Source: Escherichia phage KEP4. From it: 64,000 nt of DNA. A model generated the notes under the pieces. The model was given only the letters and a program-made list of their open reading frames with translations, was not told the origin of the DNA and did no database searches. How positions within the stretch are numbered: the first letter of the stretch is position 1; each line of letters starts with the position of its first letter. Positions 28,559 to 50,913 of the stretch are shown piece by piece. The stretch lies in the sequence record PP047754. One strand, given 5' to 3'. A program made the translations under genes and the position numbers.

Positions 28559-29248
28559 ATGAAACGTTTAATCCTCGGGGTTGTGCTGGCAGGTCTGGCA
28601 TTACCCGCCGCCGCCAAGCTGAACTCCACAGGTGACAAACTGTGGTCTGATCTTTCCTACTGTGCTGGGTTCTCCCAGGCGGTCGCTATCGACAAGTCCG
28701 GTTCCATAGAGAATTTCGCTGAACTTTGGAACACGGGTAACGTCTCCACTGCTGTTGTTAATGCTGGGATTGAGTTCAACCGTTACAAACAGGGAGCCTA
28801 CAACTTGAAAGGCTACCTGAATGACGATGAATTTAACCGAGGAGGCATGGAGGCTGGCGATCTCATCATGACTGGCCGTATGGGCACACAAGGCCGTATG
28901 ACTGTAAGGCAATGCCGTTCTCTCCCCTCTCCGGCATTACAGAAGGGTGTGCAAATCGGGCGTCGACATTTGGATCTGATCAATGATGGCAACCAATGCA
29001 TCAAGGTGTTTGAATATAGTGCCGACCAAGAATCAGATCGACGTTTGAAAAAGGAATGGCGGACACGTGCCCTTGGATTGAGAGCATGGCTCGTAGAAAA
29101 CGATTATTACTACGAGGATCGTGTTCAGAACGGATTGAAAGATCTTTCTACTAATTTGTCTGTCAATCTAGACGACCCAAGGCTTTCGCGTGAACTCAAG
29201 CAAACACGGATTGACTGCGACAATATGATGAAGGAGAACGAAAGATGA
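28559..29248 (+). CDS. secreted/periplasmic protein with signal peptide, 229 aa
   Basis: AAGGAGA RBS; N-terminus MKRLILGVVLAGLALPAAAK is a classic Sec signal peptide. Confidence 0.55.
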   Translation: MKRLILGVVLAGLALPAAAKLNSTGDKLWSDLSYCAGFSQAVAIDKSGSIENFAELWNTGNVSTAVVNAGIEFNRYKQGAYNLKGYLNDDEFNRGGMEAGDLIMTGRMGTQGRMTVRQCRSLPSPALQKGVQIGRRHLDLINDGNQCIKVFEYSADQESDRRLKKEWRTRALGLRAWLVENDYYYEDRVQNGLKDLSTNLSVNLDDPRLSRELKQTRIDCDNMMKENER

Positions 29249-29565
29249 GAAACATAATATTCTTGTTATTCTTTTCTATGTTGGCATCATTCCAAGTTGT
29301 GGCAACTCCGGCTAGCAAATTGAATATCTGTGCGGCCTGGTTGTCTACTTATCAACAATTTCACCCTGATGATAAAGATACATCCATCCTTTTATCAGAT
29401 TATGAAGGTGAGTTGAAACGCCTTGATCTCTACAGCGTGGATCAAATAGAGAATGCTTTGGATTTGCCAATGATGGAGTCCGCTGCCGACAATAGCAAAC
29501 AGACGATCAAAGATCTGACTATGTGTCGGGAAATAGCGACTAATTTCGTTGGAAATCAAAGATAA
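29245..29565 (+). CDS. small secreted/periplasmic protein with signal peptide, 106 aa
   Basis: Overlaps previous gene by ATGA; N-terminus MRNIIFLLFFSMLASFQVVA. Confidence 0.5.
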   Translation: MRNIIFLLFFSMLASFQVVATPASKLNICAAWLSTYQQFHPDDKDTSILLSDYEGELKRLDLYSVDQIENALDLPMMESAADNSKQTIKDLTMCREIATNFVGNQR

Positions 29566-30590: not shown

Positions 30591-30620
30591 AAGGCGGTTA
30601 TTATTAAACCGCCTTTTATT
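30591..30620 (+). terminator. rho-independent terminator
   Basis: ggcggtt-attatta-aaccgcc hairpin followed by TTTTATTT. Confidence 0.6.
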
Positions 30621-30635
30621 TGAGAGATCTATATT

Positions 30636-31304
30636 ATGAATAAGAAGAGTCGTATCATCATCGGCGCGGATCAGGGAAATCTGTATTTTGATACAACTGG
30701 TGCTATCGCCCACGCCATCCTTCCAACAGGTATTTCTGTTTATTGCGTCGAACATCCAGATCCAGCGATCAAACGACTTTGTTACATCCATCGTGAAAAG
30801 GGATTGATCGTATTACCAGAAGGCGCAATTATGCGCGCTCGTTTTTGGCCGATTGATTTTAATTCCATGAGCAATAGGGAGATCGACGCCCGTTTCTTCG
30901 CATATAATATGAACCGGACTCTAAAAAATGAAACTCAGAGAGTTGTTCATTTCGACAATGAAACTCATGGAGTGACGTTAGAATTCAGAATTCGTGGTGA
31001 AGCTATTCAGGTGAAGAAATCAAGCTGGAAAACTGAAGGGACGTTCACATATGATTATGCGTTAATCGACAAATTGTGCAATCAGTTTCGCATTAGTCTG
31101 ACTGCCAACGACGATTTAGGTCAGTATGTTGTATGGACAGCCCGTTCACCACATATGAACGGTATCATGATGGAGAGTGAAACTCGTAATCGCGCTGTGC
31201 TCCAACTGCTGCTGTTAGACGCGTATTCTCGCAACCCGTTGGAATATCTGTCTCGGGAACAGATTGATAACGCGCTTTCTCATTGTAACCGTCTGGAGGT
31301 GTAA
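30636..31304 (+). CDS. hypothetical protein, 222 aa
   Basis: ORF with ATG start. Confidence 0.5.
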   Translation: MNKKSRIIIGADQGNLYFDTTGAIAHAILPTGISVYCVEHPDPAIKRLCYIHREKGLIVLPEGAIMRARFWPIDFNSMSNREIDARFFAYNMNRTLKNETQRVVHFDNETHGVTLEFRIRGEAIQVKKSSWKTEGTFTYDYALIDKLCNQFRISLTANDDLGQYVVWTARSPHMNGIMMESETRNRAVLQLLLLDAYSRNPLEYLSREQIDNALSHCNRLEV

Positions 31305-31305
31305 T

Positions 31306-31593
31306 ATGTCCGGCGTATGGTGTGATGTATTATTAGTGAGATTTTCAAATGGGATGGATAACCAGATTATTTCATTCTTTTATCCTGTTCCCTTTTCTTC
31401 TATGGGTCTGACTGTCAAGCGCGTTCTTGACATAGAAGAAAACCTCAACGCTATGCCGTATATGGCGCGACCACACGTGCTGGGTTGTGAACTGTTAAAC
31501 GAAATGATGATTGATGAGAATCTTGTTGAAACAATTATCACGCGTGAACAGATGAAAACCATACTGGCTCAGGGAGAACCCCATGTCGAATAA
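31306..31593 (+). CDS. hypothetical protein, 95 aa
   Basis: ATG after GGAGGTG; ORF-track start 31264 is an alternative codon. Confidence 0.4.
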   Translation: MSGVWCDVLLVRFSNGMDNQIISFFYPVPFSSMGLTVKRVLDIEENLNAMPYMARPHVLGCELLNEMMIDENLVETIITREQMKTILAQGEPHVE

Positions 31594-31903
31594 ACCGTTT
31601 GAACTTAAATTTCGCGTTTGGCATATTCCCCAGGTTCCTGGGATCGCTTTTCATGTTGAGGTTCCAACATTTGAAGAAGCGCAGCGCCTGAAGAATGCTC
31701 TGGGTGATTATGATTTGTTCCAGTTCAACAACAATATCAAGCCGGATTATTGCAATGCTTCGGGCATTCAGATTTATCAACATGATCTGACCGATGATGA
31801 TCTTAATGATATGGGTCTGGATGATCGTTGGGTTGATATGGAAGATGTTGACGAACTCAACGATTATTTCGAGCATCTGCGCAGTACAGGGTGGGAAATA
31901 TGA
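31583..31903 (+). CDS. small acidic protein, 106 aa (DNA-mimic-like composition)
   Basis: AGGGAGAA RBS; C-terminal half very Asp/Glu-rich (DLTDDDLNDMGLDDRWVDMEDVDELNDYFEHL). Confidence 0.45.
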   Translation: MSNKPFELKFRVWHIPQVPGIAFHVEVPTFEEAQRLKNALGDYDLFQFNNNIKPDYCNASGIQIYQHDLTDDDLNDMGLDDRWVDMEDVDELNDYFEHLRSTGWEI

Positions 31904-32208
31904 TTTCAAAATATATTGTAAAGCCTGGGGATACTCTGTCCAGGATCGCTCTAAAATTATATGGTGATGCCCAACAGTATATCAAATTAGCCAGATTCAA
32001 CAATATCCAAAACCCAGGCCATATCACGGTTGGTCAGATTATTTGTTTACCCACACCTGTCGAAGACAAAGAACACATTATGATTCCGGTTCAACCGACT
32101 CAGAAGTGTTTGGATGCGATAGCTGGTTTATTTCGGCCAGGTTTTTGTGATGGAACTATTGAACGTCACATTTATCAAGCGATTGTGGAAAACGCAGGTG
32201 TAAAATGA
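31900..32208 (+). CDS. LysM domain protein, 102 aa
   Basis: YIVKPGDTLSRIALKLYGDAQQYIKLARFNNIQNPGHITVGQIICLP matches the LysM peptidoglycan-binding motif. Confidence 0.6.
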   Translation: MISKYIVKPGDTLSRIALKLYGDAQQYIKLARFNNIQNPGHITVGQIICLPTPVEDKEHIMIPVQPTQKCLDAIAGLFRPGFCDGTIERHIYQAIVENAGVK

Positions 32209-32414
32209 TCGGATTAATTCGTTACCTGTTCATATTCGTAATTTCAACATTCATTTTATTTTTCTTTTTCAAATACTTGAAAGAGACTAAAATCTACCGA
32301 AGTAAACGTTGGCGCAAACGGGTGAGGGTAACTTTCCTGCTGCTGATTTCTTCGGTTACAATAACCGCACTCACATTGGGTGCATATATCTACATTTTTG
32401 AAGGGGTACATTGA
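32205..32414 (+). CDS. small membrane protein with two predicted TM helices, 69 aa
   Basis: Hydrophobic segments LFIFVISTFILFFFF and VTFLLLISSVTITALTLGAYIYIF separated by a basic loop; start and stop overlap both neighbours. Confidence 0.45.
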   Translation: MIGLIRYLFIFVISTFILFFFFKYLKETKIYRSKRWRKRVRVTFLLLISSVTITALTLGAYIYIFEGVH

Positions 32415-33205
32415 TGTTCAAGAAATTGGTGTTCGGTGCAATTATGGTTCTGGCTGCAAGTCTACTTTCTGGTTGTGGCGGCGTTATCGATGAAGGTAAT
32501 GTCGGCGTTCGCACCCAATGGGGTGAAGTAGACATGAACCCTGTAACAGCGGGGATCTACACCAGCTTTGTTTCAAGCGTGGATGTTTACACGACCAAAG
32601 AAGCCGTTGTGAGTCTGACTAAAATGACGCCAAAGGCCAAAGACAACCTGACTCTGGAAGACTTGGATGTGGATGTTTATTACACACCCAATGTCGCAAA
32701 GGTTCCGTGGTTCCATACCAAATTTGCTGGCCAGAGCGCCGAACTCGATGATGGCACGATAGCGGTGGGTTTCAATCTAGTTAAAACTGCTGCAGCATCT
32801 TCTTCGATGGACGCCGTTTCTTCTCTTGATTCTATGACAATTCACACCCAACGTGCTGAATTAGAGAAGATGATTAAAGACCGCACTCAGCAACAATTAG
32901 AGACTGCTGCGCCTGGCATGTTCACAATCACACGCGTGTTGGTCAAAAAGGCGCTGACGGATCCTTCTATTGAGCAGTCTATCCGTGATAATGTTATGGC
33001 GGACAAACGATTGGATACGGCAAGAAAGAACGTTGAAATTCGCGAGCAAGAAGCCCAAGCGAACCAGAAACTGACCACTTCGCTGACGCCTGAATATCTT
33101 CAACATGAATATAACATGGTATTACAATCATGTGCCAATAGTGGAAAATGTACTCTGATCGTTGACGGATCCGGCTCAGGTAAAATGCTGAACGTCGGCA
33201 AATAA
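32414..33205 (+). CDS. SPFH/band-7 (HflK/C-, stomatin-like) lipoprotein, 263 aa
   Basis: Lipoprotein signal MFKKLVFGAIMVLAASLLSGC (lipobox LSGC), then GNVGVRTQWGEV SPFH-type N-terminal motif and coiled-coil region. Confidence 0.5.
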   Translation: MFKKLVFGAIMVLAASLLSGCGGVIDEGNVGVRTQWGEVDMNPVTAGIYTSFVSSVDVYTTKEAVVSLTKMTPKAKDNLTLEDLDVDVYYTPNVAKVPWFHTKFAGQSAELDDGTIAVGFNLVKTAAASSSMDAVSSLDSMTIHTQRAELEKMIKDRTQQQLETAAPGMFTITRVLVKKALTDPSIEQSIRDNVMADKRLDTARKNVEIREQEAQANQKLTTSLTPEYLQHEYNMVLQSCANSGKCTLIVDGSGSGKMLNVGK

Positions 33206-33288: not shown

Positions 33289-33567
33289 ATGAACCGTACT
33301 GATTTTATCGCTCACATCGCCCAGACTCAGGGTATGACCAAAGGCGAAGCAGAGAAGATCGTGGCATCCTTTATCAACGGCGTAAAAACTGCAGTCGCAG
33401 CTGGCCAATCTGTCCAATTCGTCGGCTTTGGCGCGTTTGAAGTTAAACATCAGGAAGCGCGCACTGGCCGCAACCCGCTGAACGGGCAAGCGATTCAGAT
33501 CGAAGCGAAAAATGTTGTTAAATTCAAAGTCGGTGAAGGTCTGAAAGCTGCTGCCAACGGCCAGTAA
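33289..33567 (+). CDS. HU/IHF-family histone-like DNA-binding protein
   Basis: 92 aa; VQFVGFGAFEVKHQEARTGRNPLNGQAIQIEAKNVVKFKVG matches the HU signature GFGxF...R.GRNP.TG. Confidence 0.85.
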   Translation: MNRTDFIAHIAQTQGMTKGEAEKIVASFINGVKTAVAAGQSVQFVGFGAFEVKHQEARTGRNPLNGQAIQIEAKNVVKFKVGEGLKAAANGQ

Positions 33568-33615: not shown

Positions 33616-33645
33616 AAAGCCGAGGTTAATGCCTCGGCTTTTTCG
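33616..33645 (+). terminator. rho-independent terminator after HU gene
   Basis: aagccgagg-ttaat-gcctcggctt hairpin followed by TTTT. Confidence 0.65.
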
Positions 33646-49860: not shown

Positions 49861-50049
49861 ATGAGTAGAGCAATTATCCAAGCCTCTCCTGGCGCTCTAT
49901 GGGTTGCCGACCGAATTCCCAACGCGCACTTTCCTCAGTTCCAAGAGGAACTGGAACAAACGATGTTGAAAATATTTGAAAAATATGGGTATGATTCCGA
50001 AGTTAGGACTTCCTTCAAAGAAATCATGCCTGTCGTCGTAGTCAGATAA
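49861..50049 (+). CDS. hypothetical protein, 62 aa
   Basis: Short ORF with GGAGAATGAG upstream. Confidence 0.3.
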   Translation: MSRAIIQASPGALWVADRIPNAHFPQFQEELEQTMLKIFEKYGYDSEVRTSFKEIMPVVVVR

Positions 50050-50118
50050 TCGACACTAAATCCTCAAGTTCGACTTTCACTTTAAATACCTTCGCATACA
50101 TTGCGGAGGTATTTTCTT

Positions 50119-50913
50119 ATGGCCATTCTAAAACTTGGCAACCGAGGTTCTGAAGTCAAAGCACTTCAACAAAGCCTCAACAAAATCGGTTTCTCCCTTA
50201 CAGCCGATGGCATATTTGGTAAAGCAACAGAGAATGCAGTCAAATCCGTTCAGGCAGGTGCTGGATTGGTTATTGATGGTATTGCTGGGCCAAAGACCTT
50301 CTATGCTATCCGCAACGCTGGAGACGCTCACCAGGAACATCTGACCGAAGCGGACTTGGTTGACGCAGCACGTGAACTTGGTGTTGAGCTGGCCAGTATG
50401 AAAGCTGTGAATCAGGTAGAATCCCGTGGCACGGGTTTTACCAAAACTGGCAAGATCAAAACTCTGTTTGAGCGCCACATCATGTACAAAAAGGTGACGG
50501 CCAAATTCGGGCAAGCAAGAGCCAATGCTCTGTACCAACTCTACCCAACATTGGTTAACCCCAATTCTGGCGGGTATATCGGCGGAGACGCGGAGTTGGA
50601 ACGCCTTCAGGGTGCAATCGCCCTTGACGAGGACTGCGCTTACGAGAGTGCTTCCTACGGCCTATTCCAGATCATGGGGTTCAACTGCCAAATCTGTGGA
50701 TATCCAAATGCCAAAGAGATGTTCACTGATTTCCTGACTGGTGAACGCGCTCATCTTCTGGCATTTGTCAAGTTCATCAAGGCTGATGCCAATATGTGGA
50801 AAGCCCTGAAGAACAAGAATTGGGCCGAGTTTGCTCGTCGGTACAATGGTCCGGCATATGCGAAAAACCAGTATGATACTAAACTGGCGGCAGCATACAA
50901 GAGTTTCTGCTAA
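50119..50913 (+). CDS. endolysin: N-terminal peptidoglycan-binding domain + C-terminal muramidase-like domain
   Basis: GGAGG RBS; LKLGNRGSEVKALQQSLNKIGF ... DGIFGKATENAVKSVQ (PG_binding_1-like); C-terminal YGLFQIMGFN ... WAEFARRYNGP. Confidence 0.7.
   Translation: MAILKLGNRGSEVKALQQSLNKIGFSLTADGIFGKATENAVKSVQAGAGLVIDGIAGPKTFYAIRNAGDAHQEHLTEADLVDAARELGVELASMKAVNQVESRGTGFTKTGKIKTLFERHIMYKKVTAKFGQARANALYQLYPTLVNPNSGGYIGGDAELERLQGAIALDEDCAYESASYGLFQIMGFNCQICGYPNAKEMFTDFLTGERAHLLAFVKFIKADANMWKALKNKNWAEFARRYNGPAYAKNQYDTKLAAAYKSFC

What the first reader, a model, noticed from the sequence alone, without database searches (positions are those of the whole stretch)
31900..33205. Overlapping three-gene operon: LysM protein, small two-TM protein, SPFH/band-7 lipoprotein
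Three ORFs with overlapping stop/start codons (31900-32208, 32205-32414, 32414-33205) encode a LysM peptidoglycan-binding protein, a 69-aa two-helix membrane protein and a lipoprotein with an SPFH-like N-terminal domain (GNVGVRTQWGEV) and coiled coil. Bacterial SPFH proteins (HflK/C, YqiK, stomatin) usually pair with a small NfeD-type membrane partner and scaffold or regulate membrane proteases such as FtsH. A phage envelope module of this composition could modulate host membrane proteolysis, lysis timing or superinfection exclusion. The small TM protein is also a class-II-holin-like candidate.
Basis: partly seen in the sequence, partly recalled or inferred. Interest (0 to 1): 0.7.

Follow-up and report, generated by a model that had tools for sequence, protein, structure and literature searches.

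The report
Phage membrane-hairpin plus periplasmic SPFH lipoprotein pair
A Vi01-like Salmonella phage carries a prohibitin/HflK-like (SPFH) lipoprotein that is always inherited with a tiny two-helix membrane protein, a pairing found in many large phages but not in bacterial relatives; the neighbouring LysM gene is a separate add-on, and the pair's function (probably envelope protection rather than lysis) is still untested.

Summary
The three overlapping ORFs are real genes. They encode a LysM protein (31900-32208), a 69-aa two-TM hairpin (32205-32414) and an SPFH/Band-7 lipoprotein (32414-33205). The window is a Vi01-like Kuttervirus, and the SPFH and LysM labels are already in GenBank and in a 2011 paper. 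The "three-gene operon" reading does not hold. The genes sit in a seven-gene unit bounded by terminator hairpins, in the replication region. LysM is an independent cassette: most Kuttervirus genomes lack it, and Klebsiella relatives have it without the SPFH pair. The conserved unit is the hairpin plus the lipoprotein. A small two-TM ORF abuts the SPFH gene in 20 of 23 non-redundant viral loci and in 1 of 80 bacterial loci (p = 3.5e-17). Both genes are under strong purifying selection (dN/dS about 0.02), yet natural deletion mutants are viable. The AlphaFold model matches full-length cage subunits such as prohibitin, erlin, HflK/C and QmcA. The hairpin is neither an NfeD homologue nor a credible holin. 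My best reading is a periplasm-facing SPFH scaffold with a new kind of membrane partner that serves an accessory envelope function. The biological role and the membrane it sits on remain inferred. I rate it a new variant of a known kind, of moderate interest.

The parts
30591..30615 (+). Upstream terminator-like hairpin (9-bp stem, 5 GC pairs, T-rich tail); left boundary of the transcription unit
   Evidence: annotated as a terminator at the syntenic site in phage Mooltan
30636..31304 (+). First gene of the unit, 222 aa, function unknown (phrog_5426)
31306..31593 (+). Second gene of the unit, 95 aa, function unknown (phrog_5397)
31583..31903 (+). P22 gp17-like protein (PF17420, labelled 'superinfection exclusion'); its stop overlaps the LysM start (ATGA)
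   Evidence: (E = 6.3e-52); dN/dS 0.08-0.11 against the divergent relatives, 0.5-0.6 in the two near-identical comparisons that rest on 6-7 changes
31900..32208 (+). LysM-domain protein, 102 aa, no signal peptide. LysM is aa 5-51. The C-terminal 40 aa are highly conserved and hold two invariant Cys. This is an independent, lineage-specific cassette and not part of the conserved pair.
32205..32414 (+). 69-aa two-TM hairpin protein: short N-terminus, TM1, very basic loop (10 K/R), TM2, short acidic C-tail FEGVH. Conserved partner of the SPFH lipoprotein; predicted N-out/C-out.
   Evidence: (phrog_11680); dN/dS about 0.02
32414..33205 (+). SPFH/Band-7 lipoprotein, 263 aa: signal peptide with lipobox, SPFH domain directly after the lipid-modified Cys, two long helices, C-terminal strands
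   Evidence: dN/dS about 0.02; 3 spectra in Sajous1 virion-prep mass spectrometry (PMC10892097)
32465..32476 (+). Lipobox L-S-G-C (aa 18-21). Cys21 is the predicted lipidation site; residues +2 and +3 are Gly-Gly.
   Evidence: sequence; conserved in viral homologues
33131..33151 (+). Cys240 to Cys246 pair (CANSGKC), conserved in part of the lipoprotein clade and absent from the TM-anchored bacterial homologues; probable periplasmic disulfide
32256..33004 (+). Segment removed by the natural 749-bp deletion in Salmonella phage kage (same 66-residue remnant pattern in STP55). It leaves an in-frame 83-aa fusion of 17 aa of the hairpin with 66 aa of the SPFH C-terminus.
33289..33567 (+). HU-like DNA-binding protein, last gene of the unit
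33616..33641 (.). Downstream GC-rich hairpin (10-bp stem); right boundary of the unit
   Evidence: scored on the minus strand; annotated as a + strand terminator in Mooltan

Best explanation
The functional unit is a two-gene, translationally coupled module: a 69-aa inner-membrane hairpin and a lipid-anchored SPFH protein that faces the periplasm. After export and lipidation, the SPFH protein sits flat on a membrane leaflet, because no tether separates Cys21 from the first SPFH strand. Like prohibitin, erlin, HflK/C and QmcA, it probably oligomerises through its long helices and C-terminal strands into a ring or cage. I think the membrane is most likely the outer leaflet of the inner membrane, where the cage would enclose the hairpin partner and so mark off a membrane patch. 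The module is an accessory, infection-time envelope function. It is not part of the lysis machinery. It sits in a variable slot of a replication-region operon next to a gp17-like gene labelled 'superinfection exclusion'. The most likely biological role is to protect or re-organise the infected cell's envelope: against superinfecting phages, against membrane-targeting abortive-infection effectors, or by capturing host inner-membrane proteins such as FtsH. The LysM gene is a separate cassette that happens to be inserted at the same slot in the Vi01 lineage. Shown: the gene structure, the fold, the lipobox, the pairing, its restriction to phages, purifying selection, dispensability in culture and the independence of LysM. 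Inferred: oligomerisation, which membrane, physical contact between the two proteins and the biological role.
For: Fold: the AF2 model has pLDDT 85. Foldseek matches full-length cage subunits: prohibitin 8rrh 1.3e-12, erlin 9vvj, HflK/C 9cz2, 7vhq and 7wi3, stomatin 9oh9, QmcA-YbbJ 8z5g. Periplasmic orientation: there is a conserved signal peptide and lipobox. A Cys pair is seen in part of the lipoprotein clade and in none of the TM-anchored bacterial forms. The TM-anchored bacterial homologues carry N-terminal basic residues before the TM helix, which predicts N-in/C-out. Pairing: a 55-71-aa two-TM ORF ends within -3 to +29 nt of the SPFH start in 20 of 23 non-redundant viral loci at 35-54% identity, against 1 of 80 bacterial loci (Fisher p = 3.5e-17). 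The partners share one architecture: net-positive loop 21/21, a single N-terminal basic residue 20/21, an acidic residue in the C-tail 17/21. The two genes are gained and lost together in Ackermannviridae. Selection: dN/dS is about 0.02 for both genes. Not lysis: terminators bracket a seven-gene unit among replication genes, the endolysin lies about 17 kb away, and kage is viable despite its deletion. Neighbours in other phages are nucleic-acid enzymes rather than lysis genes. Expression: peptides were detected in a Sajous1 preparation. Inner-membrane location: the nearest bacterial relatives are TM-anchored in the inner membrane, the partner is an integral hairpin with almost no periplasmic exposure, and there is no tether after the Cys.
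Against: The classical E. coli +2 rule (Asp means inner-membrane retention, anything else means outer membrane; PMC4623201) predicts outer-membrane sorting. Here +2 is Gly, and in homologues it is Gly, Tyr, Met or Thr. An outer-membrane lipoprotein would be hard to reconcile with direct contact with an inner-membrane hairpin. No oligomer or complex could be modelled here. The two-TM partners fall into several sequence clusters that are not all detectably homologous, so the shared architecture could partly reflect convergence or fast drift. Timing of expression is unknown: I found no transcriptome and no convincing promoter in the scan. The 'superinfection exclusion' label on the neighbouring gene is an annotation, not a tested function in this phage. 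Three viral loci lack the hairpin. No PADLOC defence model matched.
Confidence: 0.55

Rival explanations
1. HflK/C mimic. The phage SPFH cage sits on the inner membrane and captures or excludes host FtsH, as HflK/C does, or displaces HflK/C. This would change the turnover of membrane or regulatory substrates during infection.
For: It has the same periplasm-facing orientation as HflK/C, and its fold matches HflK/C-FtsH complex subunits (7wi3, 9cz2). The best structural matches (prohibitin, HflK/C) are the SPFH proteins that cage AAA proteases. This is a specific sub-case of the best explanation.
Against: No NCBIfam HflK or HflC equivalog hit at E <= 1. Identity to HflK/C is only 13-19%. There is one SPFH gene rather than a K/C pair. 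The +2 Gly predicts outer-membrane sorting by the classical rule. A virulent phage has no lysogeny decision to tune. Nothing here tests FtsH binding.
Confidence: 0.2
2. Outer-membrane scaffold. [quoted passage not shown] It might stabilise the outer membrane, block a secondary receptor or DNA-entry route, or alter vesiculation. The hairpin would act separately or only transiently in the inner membrane, for example in biogenesis.
For: Residues +2/+3 are Gly-Gly and no homologue has Asp at +2. The classical rule then predicts the outer membrane. A prophage-encoded HflK/C-like protein of Pasteurella multocida was found in outer-membrane vesicles (PMC9872710). Known phage exclusion lipoproteins such as T5 Llp and Cor act at the outer membrane (from my own knowledge).
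Against: Strict co-inheritance and translational coupling with an inner-membrane hairpin that has only about 3-5 periplasmic residues. The closest bacterial relatives are anchored in the inner membrane by a TM helix. I could not test whether the Pasteurella protein is homologous.
Confidence: 0.2
3. Lysis function. The hairpin is a class II holin or pinholin, or the pair is an unusual spanin or lysis-timing device.
For: Two TM helices and a small size are holin-like. No TM protein lies next to the endolysin in this window, so the holin is still unidentified. In phiEa2809 the pair follows genes labelled 'Rz-like spanin'. Spanin mutants can still form plaques under some conditions (from my own knowledge).
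Against: kage is a viable isolate with most of both genes deleted, and STP55 and SenALZ1 show similarly short remnants. The pair is absent from Klebsiella Ackermannviridae and from SboM-AG3, which also lyse. It lies in a replication-region operon about 17 kb from the endolysin. The loop has 10 K/R, which predicts N-out/C-out, the opposite of class II holins. Neighbours in about 20 other phages are not lysis genes. The lipoprotein has no C-terminal TM helix (so it is not a u-spanin) and is far larger than o-spanins.
Confidence: 0.05

Closest known systems
Bacterial NfeD-SPFH operons (E. coli YbbJ-QmcA, PDB 8z5g; B. subtilis YuaF-FloT, YqeZ-FloA)
   Same: A small membrane protein encoded next to an SPFH protein. 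The SPFH subunit has the full cage architecture: SPFH domain, long helices and a C-terminal cap (Foldseek to 8z5g, 1.5e-8).
   Different: The partner here is a 69-aa bare hairpin with no OB-fold and no NfeD profile hit. The SPFH domain faces the periplasm and is lipid-anchored, whereas QmcA and flotillins face the cytoplasm. The pairing is found in phages and not in the bacterial homologues of this clade.
HflK/HflC-FtsH complex and prokaryotic prohibitins (SPFH3/SPFH4 of Hinderhofer et al. 2009, PMC2636767)
   Same: An SPFH cage facing the periplasm and anchored at its N-terminus. It is among the best fold matches. According to that paper these subfamilies also have no NfeD partner.
   Different: One gene rather than a K/C heteropair. 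A lipoprotein anchor instead of a TM helix. No HflK or HflC equivalog hit. Any interaction with FtsH is untested.
Stand-alone SPFH proteins of Beta- and Gammaproteobacteria (Steroidobacter, Rhizobacter, Methyloversatilis, Zoogloea and others)
   Same: True homologues at 34-44% identity over the full length, with the same GNVGV start directly after the anchor. Some are also lipoproteins with an SSCG or TSCG lipobox.
   Different: No upstream hairpin gene (the only bacterial locus with one is the phage-like Massilia contig L039, so 1 of 80 overall). No C-terminal Cys pair. No conserved neighbours.
Other virus-encoded SPFH/Band-7 proteins (Vibrio phage pVa5, Rhizobium phage Pasto, Streptomyces phage StarPlatinum, Burkholderia phage CSP3 orf75, giant viruses)
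   Same: SPFH fold encoded by viruses. All are functionally uncharacterised and are annotated as morons or membrane proteins.
   Different: Most are longer and labelled as membrane (TM-anchored) proteins. Whether they have a hairpin partner was not examined.
Phage superinfection-exclusion envelope proteins (T4 Imm and Sp, T5 Llp, Cor)
   Same: Small accessory envelope proteins made by lytic phages, dispensable in single infections, and in some cases lipoproteins (from my own knowledge).
   Different: No sequence or fold relationship. None has an SPFH domain or forms cages. An exclusion function for this module is only inferred.

Membership tests
SPFH / Band 7 superfamily (Pfam PF01145) | Profile match above the curated gathering score | tested here: met
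   Band_7 E = 3.2e-13, 50.6 bits against a cut-off of 23.6, covering aa 24-216. All 60 homologues but one truncated allele carry PF01145.
SPFH / Band 7 superfamily (Pfam PF01145) | Alpha/beta SPFH domain followed by long helices and a C-terminal strand (cage-subunit architecture) | tested here: met
   AF2 pLDDT 85. Strands and helices span aa 21-182, helices 184-223 and 226-242, then C-terminal strands. Foldseek probability is 1.00 to prohibitin, erlin, HflK/C, stomatin and QmcA over 230-280 columns.
SPFH / Band 7 superfamily (Pfam PF01145) | Assembly into a large homo- or hetero-oligomeric ring or cage on a membrane | not testable with these tools
   Only monomer prediction was available.
Bacterial lipoprotein (SPase II substrate) | N-terminal signal peptide ending in the lipobox [LVI][ASTVI][GAS]C | tested here: met
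   MFKKLVFGAIMVLAASLL-SGC, with the lipobox LSGC at aa 18-21. It is conserved in the viral homologues. Lipidation itself is not testable here.
NfeD family (partner of SPFH1/2/5) | C-terminal soluble OB-fold domain (Pfam NfeD PF01957) after N-terminal TM helices | tested here: not met
   No NfeD hit at E <= 1. In 69 aa, two TM helices and the loop leave only a 5-residue C-tail.
NfeD family (partner of SPFH1/2/5) | Gene adjacent to and co-transcribed with an SPFH gene | tested here: met
   The stop overlaps the SPFH start by 1 nt (TGATG). Adjacency holds in 20 of 23 viral loci.
HflK / HflC | Match to the HflK or HflC equivalog models; paired K and C paralogues | tested here: not met
   No HflK or HflC NCBIfam hit at E <= 1. 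There is a single SPFH gene in the unit.
HflK / HflC | Physical and functional association with FtsH | not testable with these tools
   Needs pull-down or substrate-stability assays.
Class II holin / pinholin | Two TM helices with N-in/C-in topology | tested here: not met
   The loop KYLKETKIYRSKRWRKRVR has 10 K/R against 1 in the N-terminus. The positive-inside rule then predicts a cytoplasmic loop and N-out/C-out. The same holds in 21 of 21 partners. This is a prediction, not an experiment.
Class II holin / pinholin | Required for lysis and plaque formation; usually encoded next to the endolysin | tested here: not met
   kage is a viable isolate with the gene truncated to 17 codons, and STP55 shows the same short SPFH remnant. 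The endolysin lies about 17 kb downstream at about 50101-50913.
Two-component or unimolecular spanin | i-spanin: type II inner-membrane protein with a periplasmic coiled coil. o-spanin: small outer-membrane lipoprotein. u-spanin: lipoprotein with a C-terminal TM helix. | tested here: not met
   The hairpin has no periplasmic domain. The lipoprotein is 243 aa when mature, has a globular SPFH domain and has no C-terminal TM helix.
LysM domain (PF01476), for the first gene | Profile match above the gathering score; beta-alpha-alpha-beta fold | tested here: met
   E = 4.3e-11, 43 bits against a cut-off of 20.9, aa 5-51. The AF2 model has strand 4-6, helices 13-21 and 24-33, strand 47-49, at pLDDT 79-89.
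Endolysin (the label many records give the LysM gene) | A catalytic muramidase, amidase or peptidase domain | tested here: not met
   Only the LysM domain is detected. The 'endolysin' label comes from a match to positions 2104-2209 of the 2564-position phrog_7348 profile. The C-terminal 50 aa form two short helices.

The most novel reading that the evidence does not exclude
The hairpin plus periplasmic SPFH lipoprotein pair is a previously unrecognised, phage-specific class of envelope module. It would build a prohibitin-like nanocage on the periplasmic face of the infected cell's inner membrane, around a dedicated hairpin partner. Its purpose would be to exclude superinfecting phages, to neutralise membrane-attacking abortive-infection effectors, or to sequester host FtsH. 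That would make it a new mechanism of phage-phage or phage-host conflict built on the SPFH scaffold.
Probability: 0.25. Interest if true: 0.75.

Novelty: new variant of a known kind. Interest (0 to 1): 0.45.

Why it matters
SPFH proteins (prohibitins, stomatins, flotillins, HflK/C) are universal membrane scaffolds, and recent cryo-EM has shown their cage architecture. Their physiological roles in bacteria are still poorly defined. A compact, two-gene, periplasm-facing version that a virulent phage deploys during infection could be a tractable model. It is small, dispensable for growth, strongly selected in nature and comes with natural deletion mutants. It could show what an SPFH cage does to a membrane and which partner it needs. 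If the role is superinfection exclusion or defence evasion, it would add a new mechanism to phage competition, and it would matter for Kuttervirus phages used in biocontrol and therapy cocktails. In practical terms, the analysis corrects recurring annotations: the LysM gene labelled 'endolysin', the hairpin gene left uncalled in several records and contigs, and the SPFH gene labelled 'regulator of protease activity'.

Tried and rejected
- PADLOC defence models gave no hit for any of the four proteins.
- A sequence search of the PDB with the SPFH protein gave no hit at E <= 1, so a fold search was needed.
- NCBIfam gave no informative hit for the hairpin or the SPFH protein.
- Clustering the neighbours of viral loci and of bacterial loci showed no conserved partner other than the hairpin. 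The high-GC loci produced spurious antisense ORF clusters, which I ignored.
- A search for a T4-type late promoter (TATAAATA) found none near the unit. With 3 matches in the window against 1.6 expected, the motif is uninformative here. The sigma-70 scan was no better than shuffled sequence.
- Literature searches for Kuttervirus or Ackermannviridae transcriptomes found nothing usable.
- I tried to confirm from the literature my recollection that Gly, Tyr and other residues at +2 can retain lipoproteins in the inner membrane (Seydel et al. 1999). The papers available state only the Asp rule, so I do not use it as evidence.
- The AF2 model of the LysM protein has a low-confidence C-terminal half (pLDDT 54-59), so I ran no fold search on it.
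- PHROG matches for hairpin partners from other phages: none. Pairwise phmmer does not link all partner clusters, so common ancestry of all hairpins is unproven.
- The holin idea was considered and rejected; see the rival explanations.
Full report
**Identity of the window and check of the observation.** The region is 99.9% identical to Vi01-like Salmonella phages such as GEC_vB_GOT, vB_SentM_sal1 and Vi01 (Kuttervirus, Ackermannviridae). LysM is 31900-32208. The 69-aa membrane protein is 32205-32414. The lipoprotein is 32414-33205. The junctions are ATGA and TGATG overlaps. Pfam confirms LysM (E = 4.3e-11) and Band_7/SPFH (E = 3.2e-13), both above the curated cut-offs. The lipoprotein has a canonical signal peptide and lipobox (LSGC, Cys21). 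The genes are under strong purifying selection: dN/dS is about 0.02 for the SPFH gene at dS 0.5-0.7, and about 0.02 for the hairpin gene.

**What was already known.** The SPFH/Band-7 domain of this 263-aa protein was tabulated in the 2011 PhiSH19 genome paper. That paper gives 98% identity to Vi01 and no match in SboM-AG3 (PMC3220722). GenBank records variously call the protein 'SPFH domain / band 7 family protein', 'lipoprotein' or 'regulator of protease activity'. They call the first gene 'LysM domain protein', 'peptidoglycan-binding protein' or, wrongly, 'endolysin'. [quoted passage not shown] So the protein is made during infection. I found no functional study. SPFH proteins are also encoded by many other phages and giant viruses, so a viral SPFH gene is not new in itself.

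**The transcription unit is larger than three genes.** Two strong GC-rich hairpins, at 30591-30615 and 33616-33641, match terminators annotated at the syntenic sites of phage Mooltan. They bracket seven co-directional, mostly overlapping genes:
- two proteins of unknown function (30636-31304 and 31306-31593)
- a P22 gp17-like protein (PF17420, E = 6e-52; 31583-31903)
- LysM
- the hairpin
- the SPFH lipoprotein
- an HU-like DNA-binding protein (33289-33567)

The unit lies among replication and recombination genes: clamp loader, helicases, RNase H, gp55-like sigma factor, gp46/47 and primase. The endolysin is about 17 kb downstream (about 50101-50913), and no membrane protein lies next to it.

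**LysM is an independent cassette.** In most Kuttervirus genomes, represented by L013-L015 and L018, the stop of the gp17-like gene overlaps the hairpin start directly (GGGAAATATGATCGG) and there is no LysM gene. LysM at 95% identity or more occurs in only 49 phage records. The SPFH gene occurs essentially complete in 164 records. Conversely, Klebsiella Ackermannviridae phages such as Madison carry gp17-like, then a 58%-identical LysM homologue, then HU, with no hairpin or SPFH gene. Phage kage keeps LysM but has lost the pair. The indel is bounded on both sides by the same ATGAT start/stop overlap. The LysM protein has no signal peptide. Its C-terminal 40 residues (IPVxPTQKCLDAIAGLFxxGFCDGxIER) are more conserved than the LysM domain itself, and they model poorly. 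Only three homologue clusters were found in the 5.8-billion-protein collection. Its function is unknown, and it is not tied to the SPFH pair.

**The conserved unit is hairpin plus SPFH lipoprotein, and it is phage-specific.** A homologue search returned 60 clusters of 260-320-aa proteins, down to 33% identity. I then fetched 29 loci from viral contigs and 80 loci from bacterial genomes, added loci from encoding contigs and annotated phages, and scored each one.

In 20 of 23 non-redundant viral loci at 35-54% identity, a 55-71-aa ORF with two hydrophobic helices ends within -3 to +29 nt of the SPFH start. These loci include Erwinia phage phiEa2809, 100-170-kb environmental phage contigs, and T4-like contigs where the module follows rIIA/rIIB. 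The hairpin ORF is frequently not called as a gene. Among 80 bacterial loci, only one has such an ORF, and that one is a phage-like Massilia contig. The rest, which are Beta- and Gammaproteobacteria at 34-44% identity, have none (Fisher p = 3.5e-17). The bacterial homologues are stand-alone genes with no conserved neighbours. They are anchored by an N-terminal TM helix or an SSCG-type lipobox.

The hairpins fall into several sequence clusters that are not all pairwise detectable. They do share an architecture:
- a short N-terminus with one basic residue (20 of 21)
- TM1
- a net-positive loop (21 of 21)
- TM2
- a short tail with an acidic residue (17 of 21)

No other neighbour is consistently linked. 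The recurring ones are an RNase T-like exonuclease, an RNA ligase and RtcB, not lysis genes.

**Structure and topology.** The AlphaFold2 model has mean pLDDT 85. It shows an SPFH alpha/beta domain starting immediately after the lipidated Cys, a 40-residue helix, a second helix and short C-terminal strands. Foldseek matches full-length subunits of the cryo-EM SPFH cages, all at probability 1.00 over 230-280 columns:
- prohibitin (8rrh, 1.3e-12)
- erlin1/2
- HflK/C with FtsH (9cz2, 7vhq, 7wi3)
- stomatin
- QmcA-YbbJ (8z5g)

The signal peptide and lipobox place the domain in the periplasm. So does the Cys240/Cys246 pair, which is found in part of the lipoprotein clade and in none of the TM-anchored bacterial forms. 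The N-in orientation predicted for the TM-anchored bacterial homologues points the same way. The hairpin's loop has 10 Lys/Arg, so it should be cytoplasmic, leaving only about 3 and 5 residues in the periplasm.

**Which membrane?** This is the weakest step. The classical Enterobacterial rule says Asp at +2 retains a lipoprotein in the inner membrane (PMC4623201). Because +2 here is Gly, the rule predicts the outer membrane. Four observations point instead to the inner membrane: the missing tether, the TM-anchored bacterial relatives, the strict coupling to an inner-membrane hairpin with almost no periplasmic exposure, and the analogy with QmcA-YbbJ. I favour the inner membrane at roughly 60:40 and list the outer-membrane scaffold as a rival.

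**Dispensability.** Phage kage carries a 749-bp deletion (window 32256-33004). It leaves an in-frame 83-aa remnant. STP55 matches only the same last 66 residues of the SPFH protein. SenALZ1, bastian and one IMG/VR genome show other truncated or shortened matches. These phages were isolated and propagated normally. The pair is also missing from other Ackermannviridae genera. Strong purifying selection combined with dispensability in culture is typical of accessory genes that matter in competition or on particular hosts.

- NfeD-like partner: the analogy of a small membrane partner holds, but membership fails. There is no NfeD profile hit and no room for the OB-fold.
- Class II holin: this is very unlikely. 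Deletion mutants are viable, related genera that also lyse do not have the gene, it sits in a replication-region operon far from the endolysin, and the predicted topology is the opposite of a class II holin.
- FtsH modulation: structurally plausible, because the orientation and fold match HflK/C, but untested. No HflK or HflC equivalog match was found.
- Superinfection exclusion: plausible from the context (a variable accessory slot next to a gp17-like gene, and an envelope location), but this is inference only. PADLOC gave no hits.

**Conclusion.** The finding is real, and its domain content is already annotated. The analysis adds four things. First, LysM is a separable cassette. Second, the hairpin and the SPFH lipoprotein form a tightly coupled module that is found in phages and is widespread among large phages. 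Third, the SPFH protein has the complete cage-subunit architecture and faces the periplasm. Fourth, the module is accessory and unrelated to lysis. It is best described as a new variant of the 'SPFH plus small membrane partner' theme. Its biological role is still open and is readily testable.

Noticed in passing
window 28559-29248 and 29245-29565: Relatives annotate these two genes as 'i-spanin' and 'Rz-like spanin'/'lipoprotein' (phrog_3843 for the second, phrog_4260 'unknown' for the first). Both start with what look like cleavable signal peptides (…ALPAAA-KLN; …FQVVA-TPA). Neither has a lipobox or a type II anchor, so the spanin annotation looks doubtful.
   Followed up: partly
window 31900-32208: Many RefSeq and pharokka-style records label the 102-aa LysM protein 'endolysin'. 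The only basis is a match to positions 2104-2209 of the 2564-position phrog_7348 profile. It has no catalytic domain and no signal peptide. Its C-terminal 40 aa, with two invariant Cys, are more conserved than the LysM domain between Salmonella and Klebsiella phage versions.
   Followed up: partly
window 50101-50913 and 49861-50049: The endolysin (peptidoglycan-binding domain plus muramidase-like domain) has no membrane protein next to it. The 62-aa ORF upstream has no TM segment. The holin of this phage is therefore not identifiable from the neighbourhood of the endolysin.
   Followed up: partly
L005 3862-6617 and L006 1575-4330: In two environmental T4-like contigs the hairpin+SPFH module sits directly after rIIA-like and rIIB (PF26926) genes. 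It is followed by a 242-aa protein with N-terminal TM helices and a coiled coil (weak PF27870 T1-F hit). A Bax1-I family membrane protein lies 3 kb downstream. This may be a cluster of membrane-integrity genes.
   Followed up: no
window 31583-31903: Among Kuttervirus relatives the gp17-like gene labelled 'superinfection exclusion' is less constrained than its neighbours in the divergent comparisons (dN/dS 0.08-0.11 at dS 0.34-0.44, against about 0.02 for the SPFH gene). It changes position relative to the SPFH gene in phiEa2809, where it lies downstream and is 157 aa long.
   Followed up: partly
phage records OR844945.1 (Enterococcus phage Efm 3-10) and MN871475.1 (Pseudomonas phage Pa-sanjiao): Both carry SPFH genes about 98% identical to Salmonella Kuttervirus. 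These are likely contaminated or mislabelled records rather than true Enterococcus or Pseudomonas phages.
   Followed up: no
window 31956-31985 and 31915-31942, minus strand: The two best sigma-70-like promoter matches in the scanned 6 kb (11/12 and 10/12) lie antisense inside the LysM gene. The overall number of promoter-like sites is no higher than in shuffled sequence, so this may be chance.
   Followed up: no
L003 4575-4796, L004 4602-4799, L008 3091-3300: In several distant phages a small soluble protein of 65-73 aa, which is not LysM, sits directly upstream of the hairpin gene and overlaps its start. The L003 and L004 versions resemble each other (MRT..P.W.VL.PGD.IREKLTG). It may be a third, lineage-specific component.
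   Followed up: no
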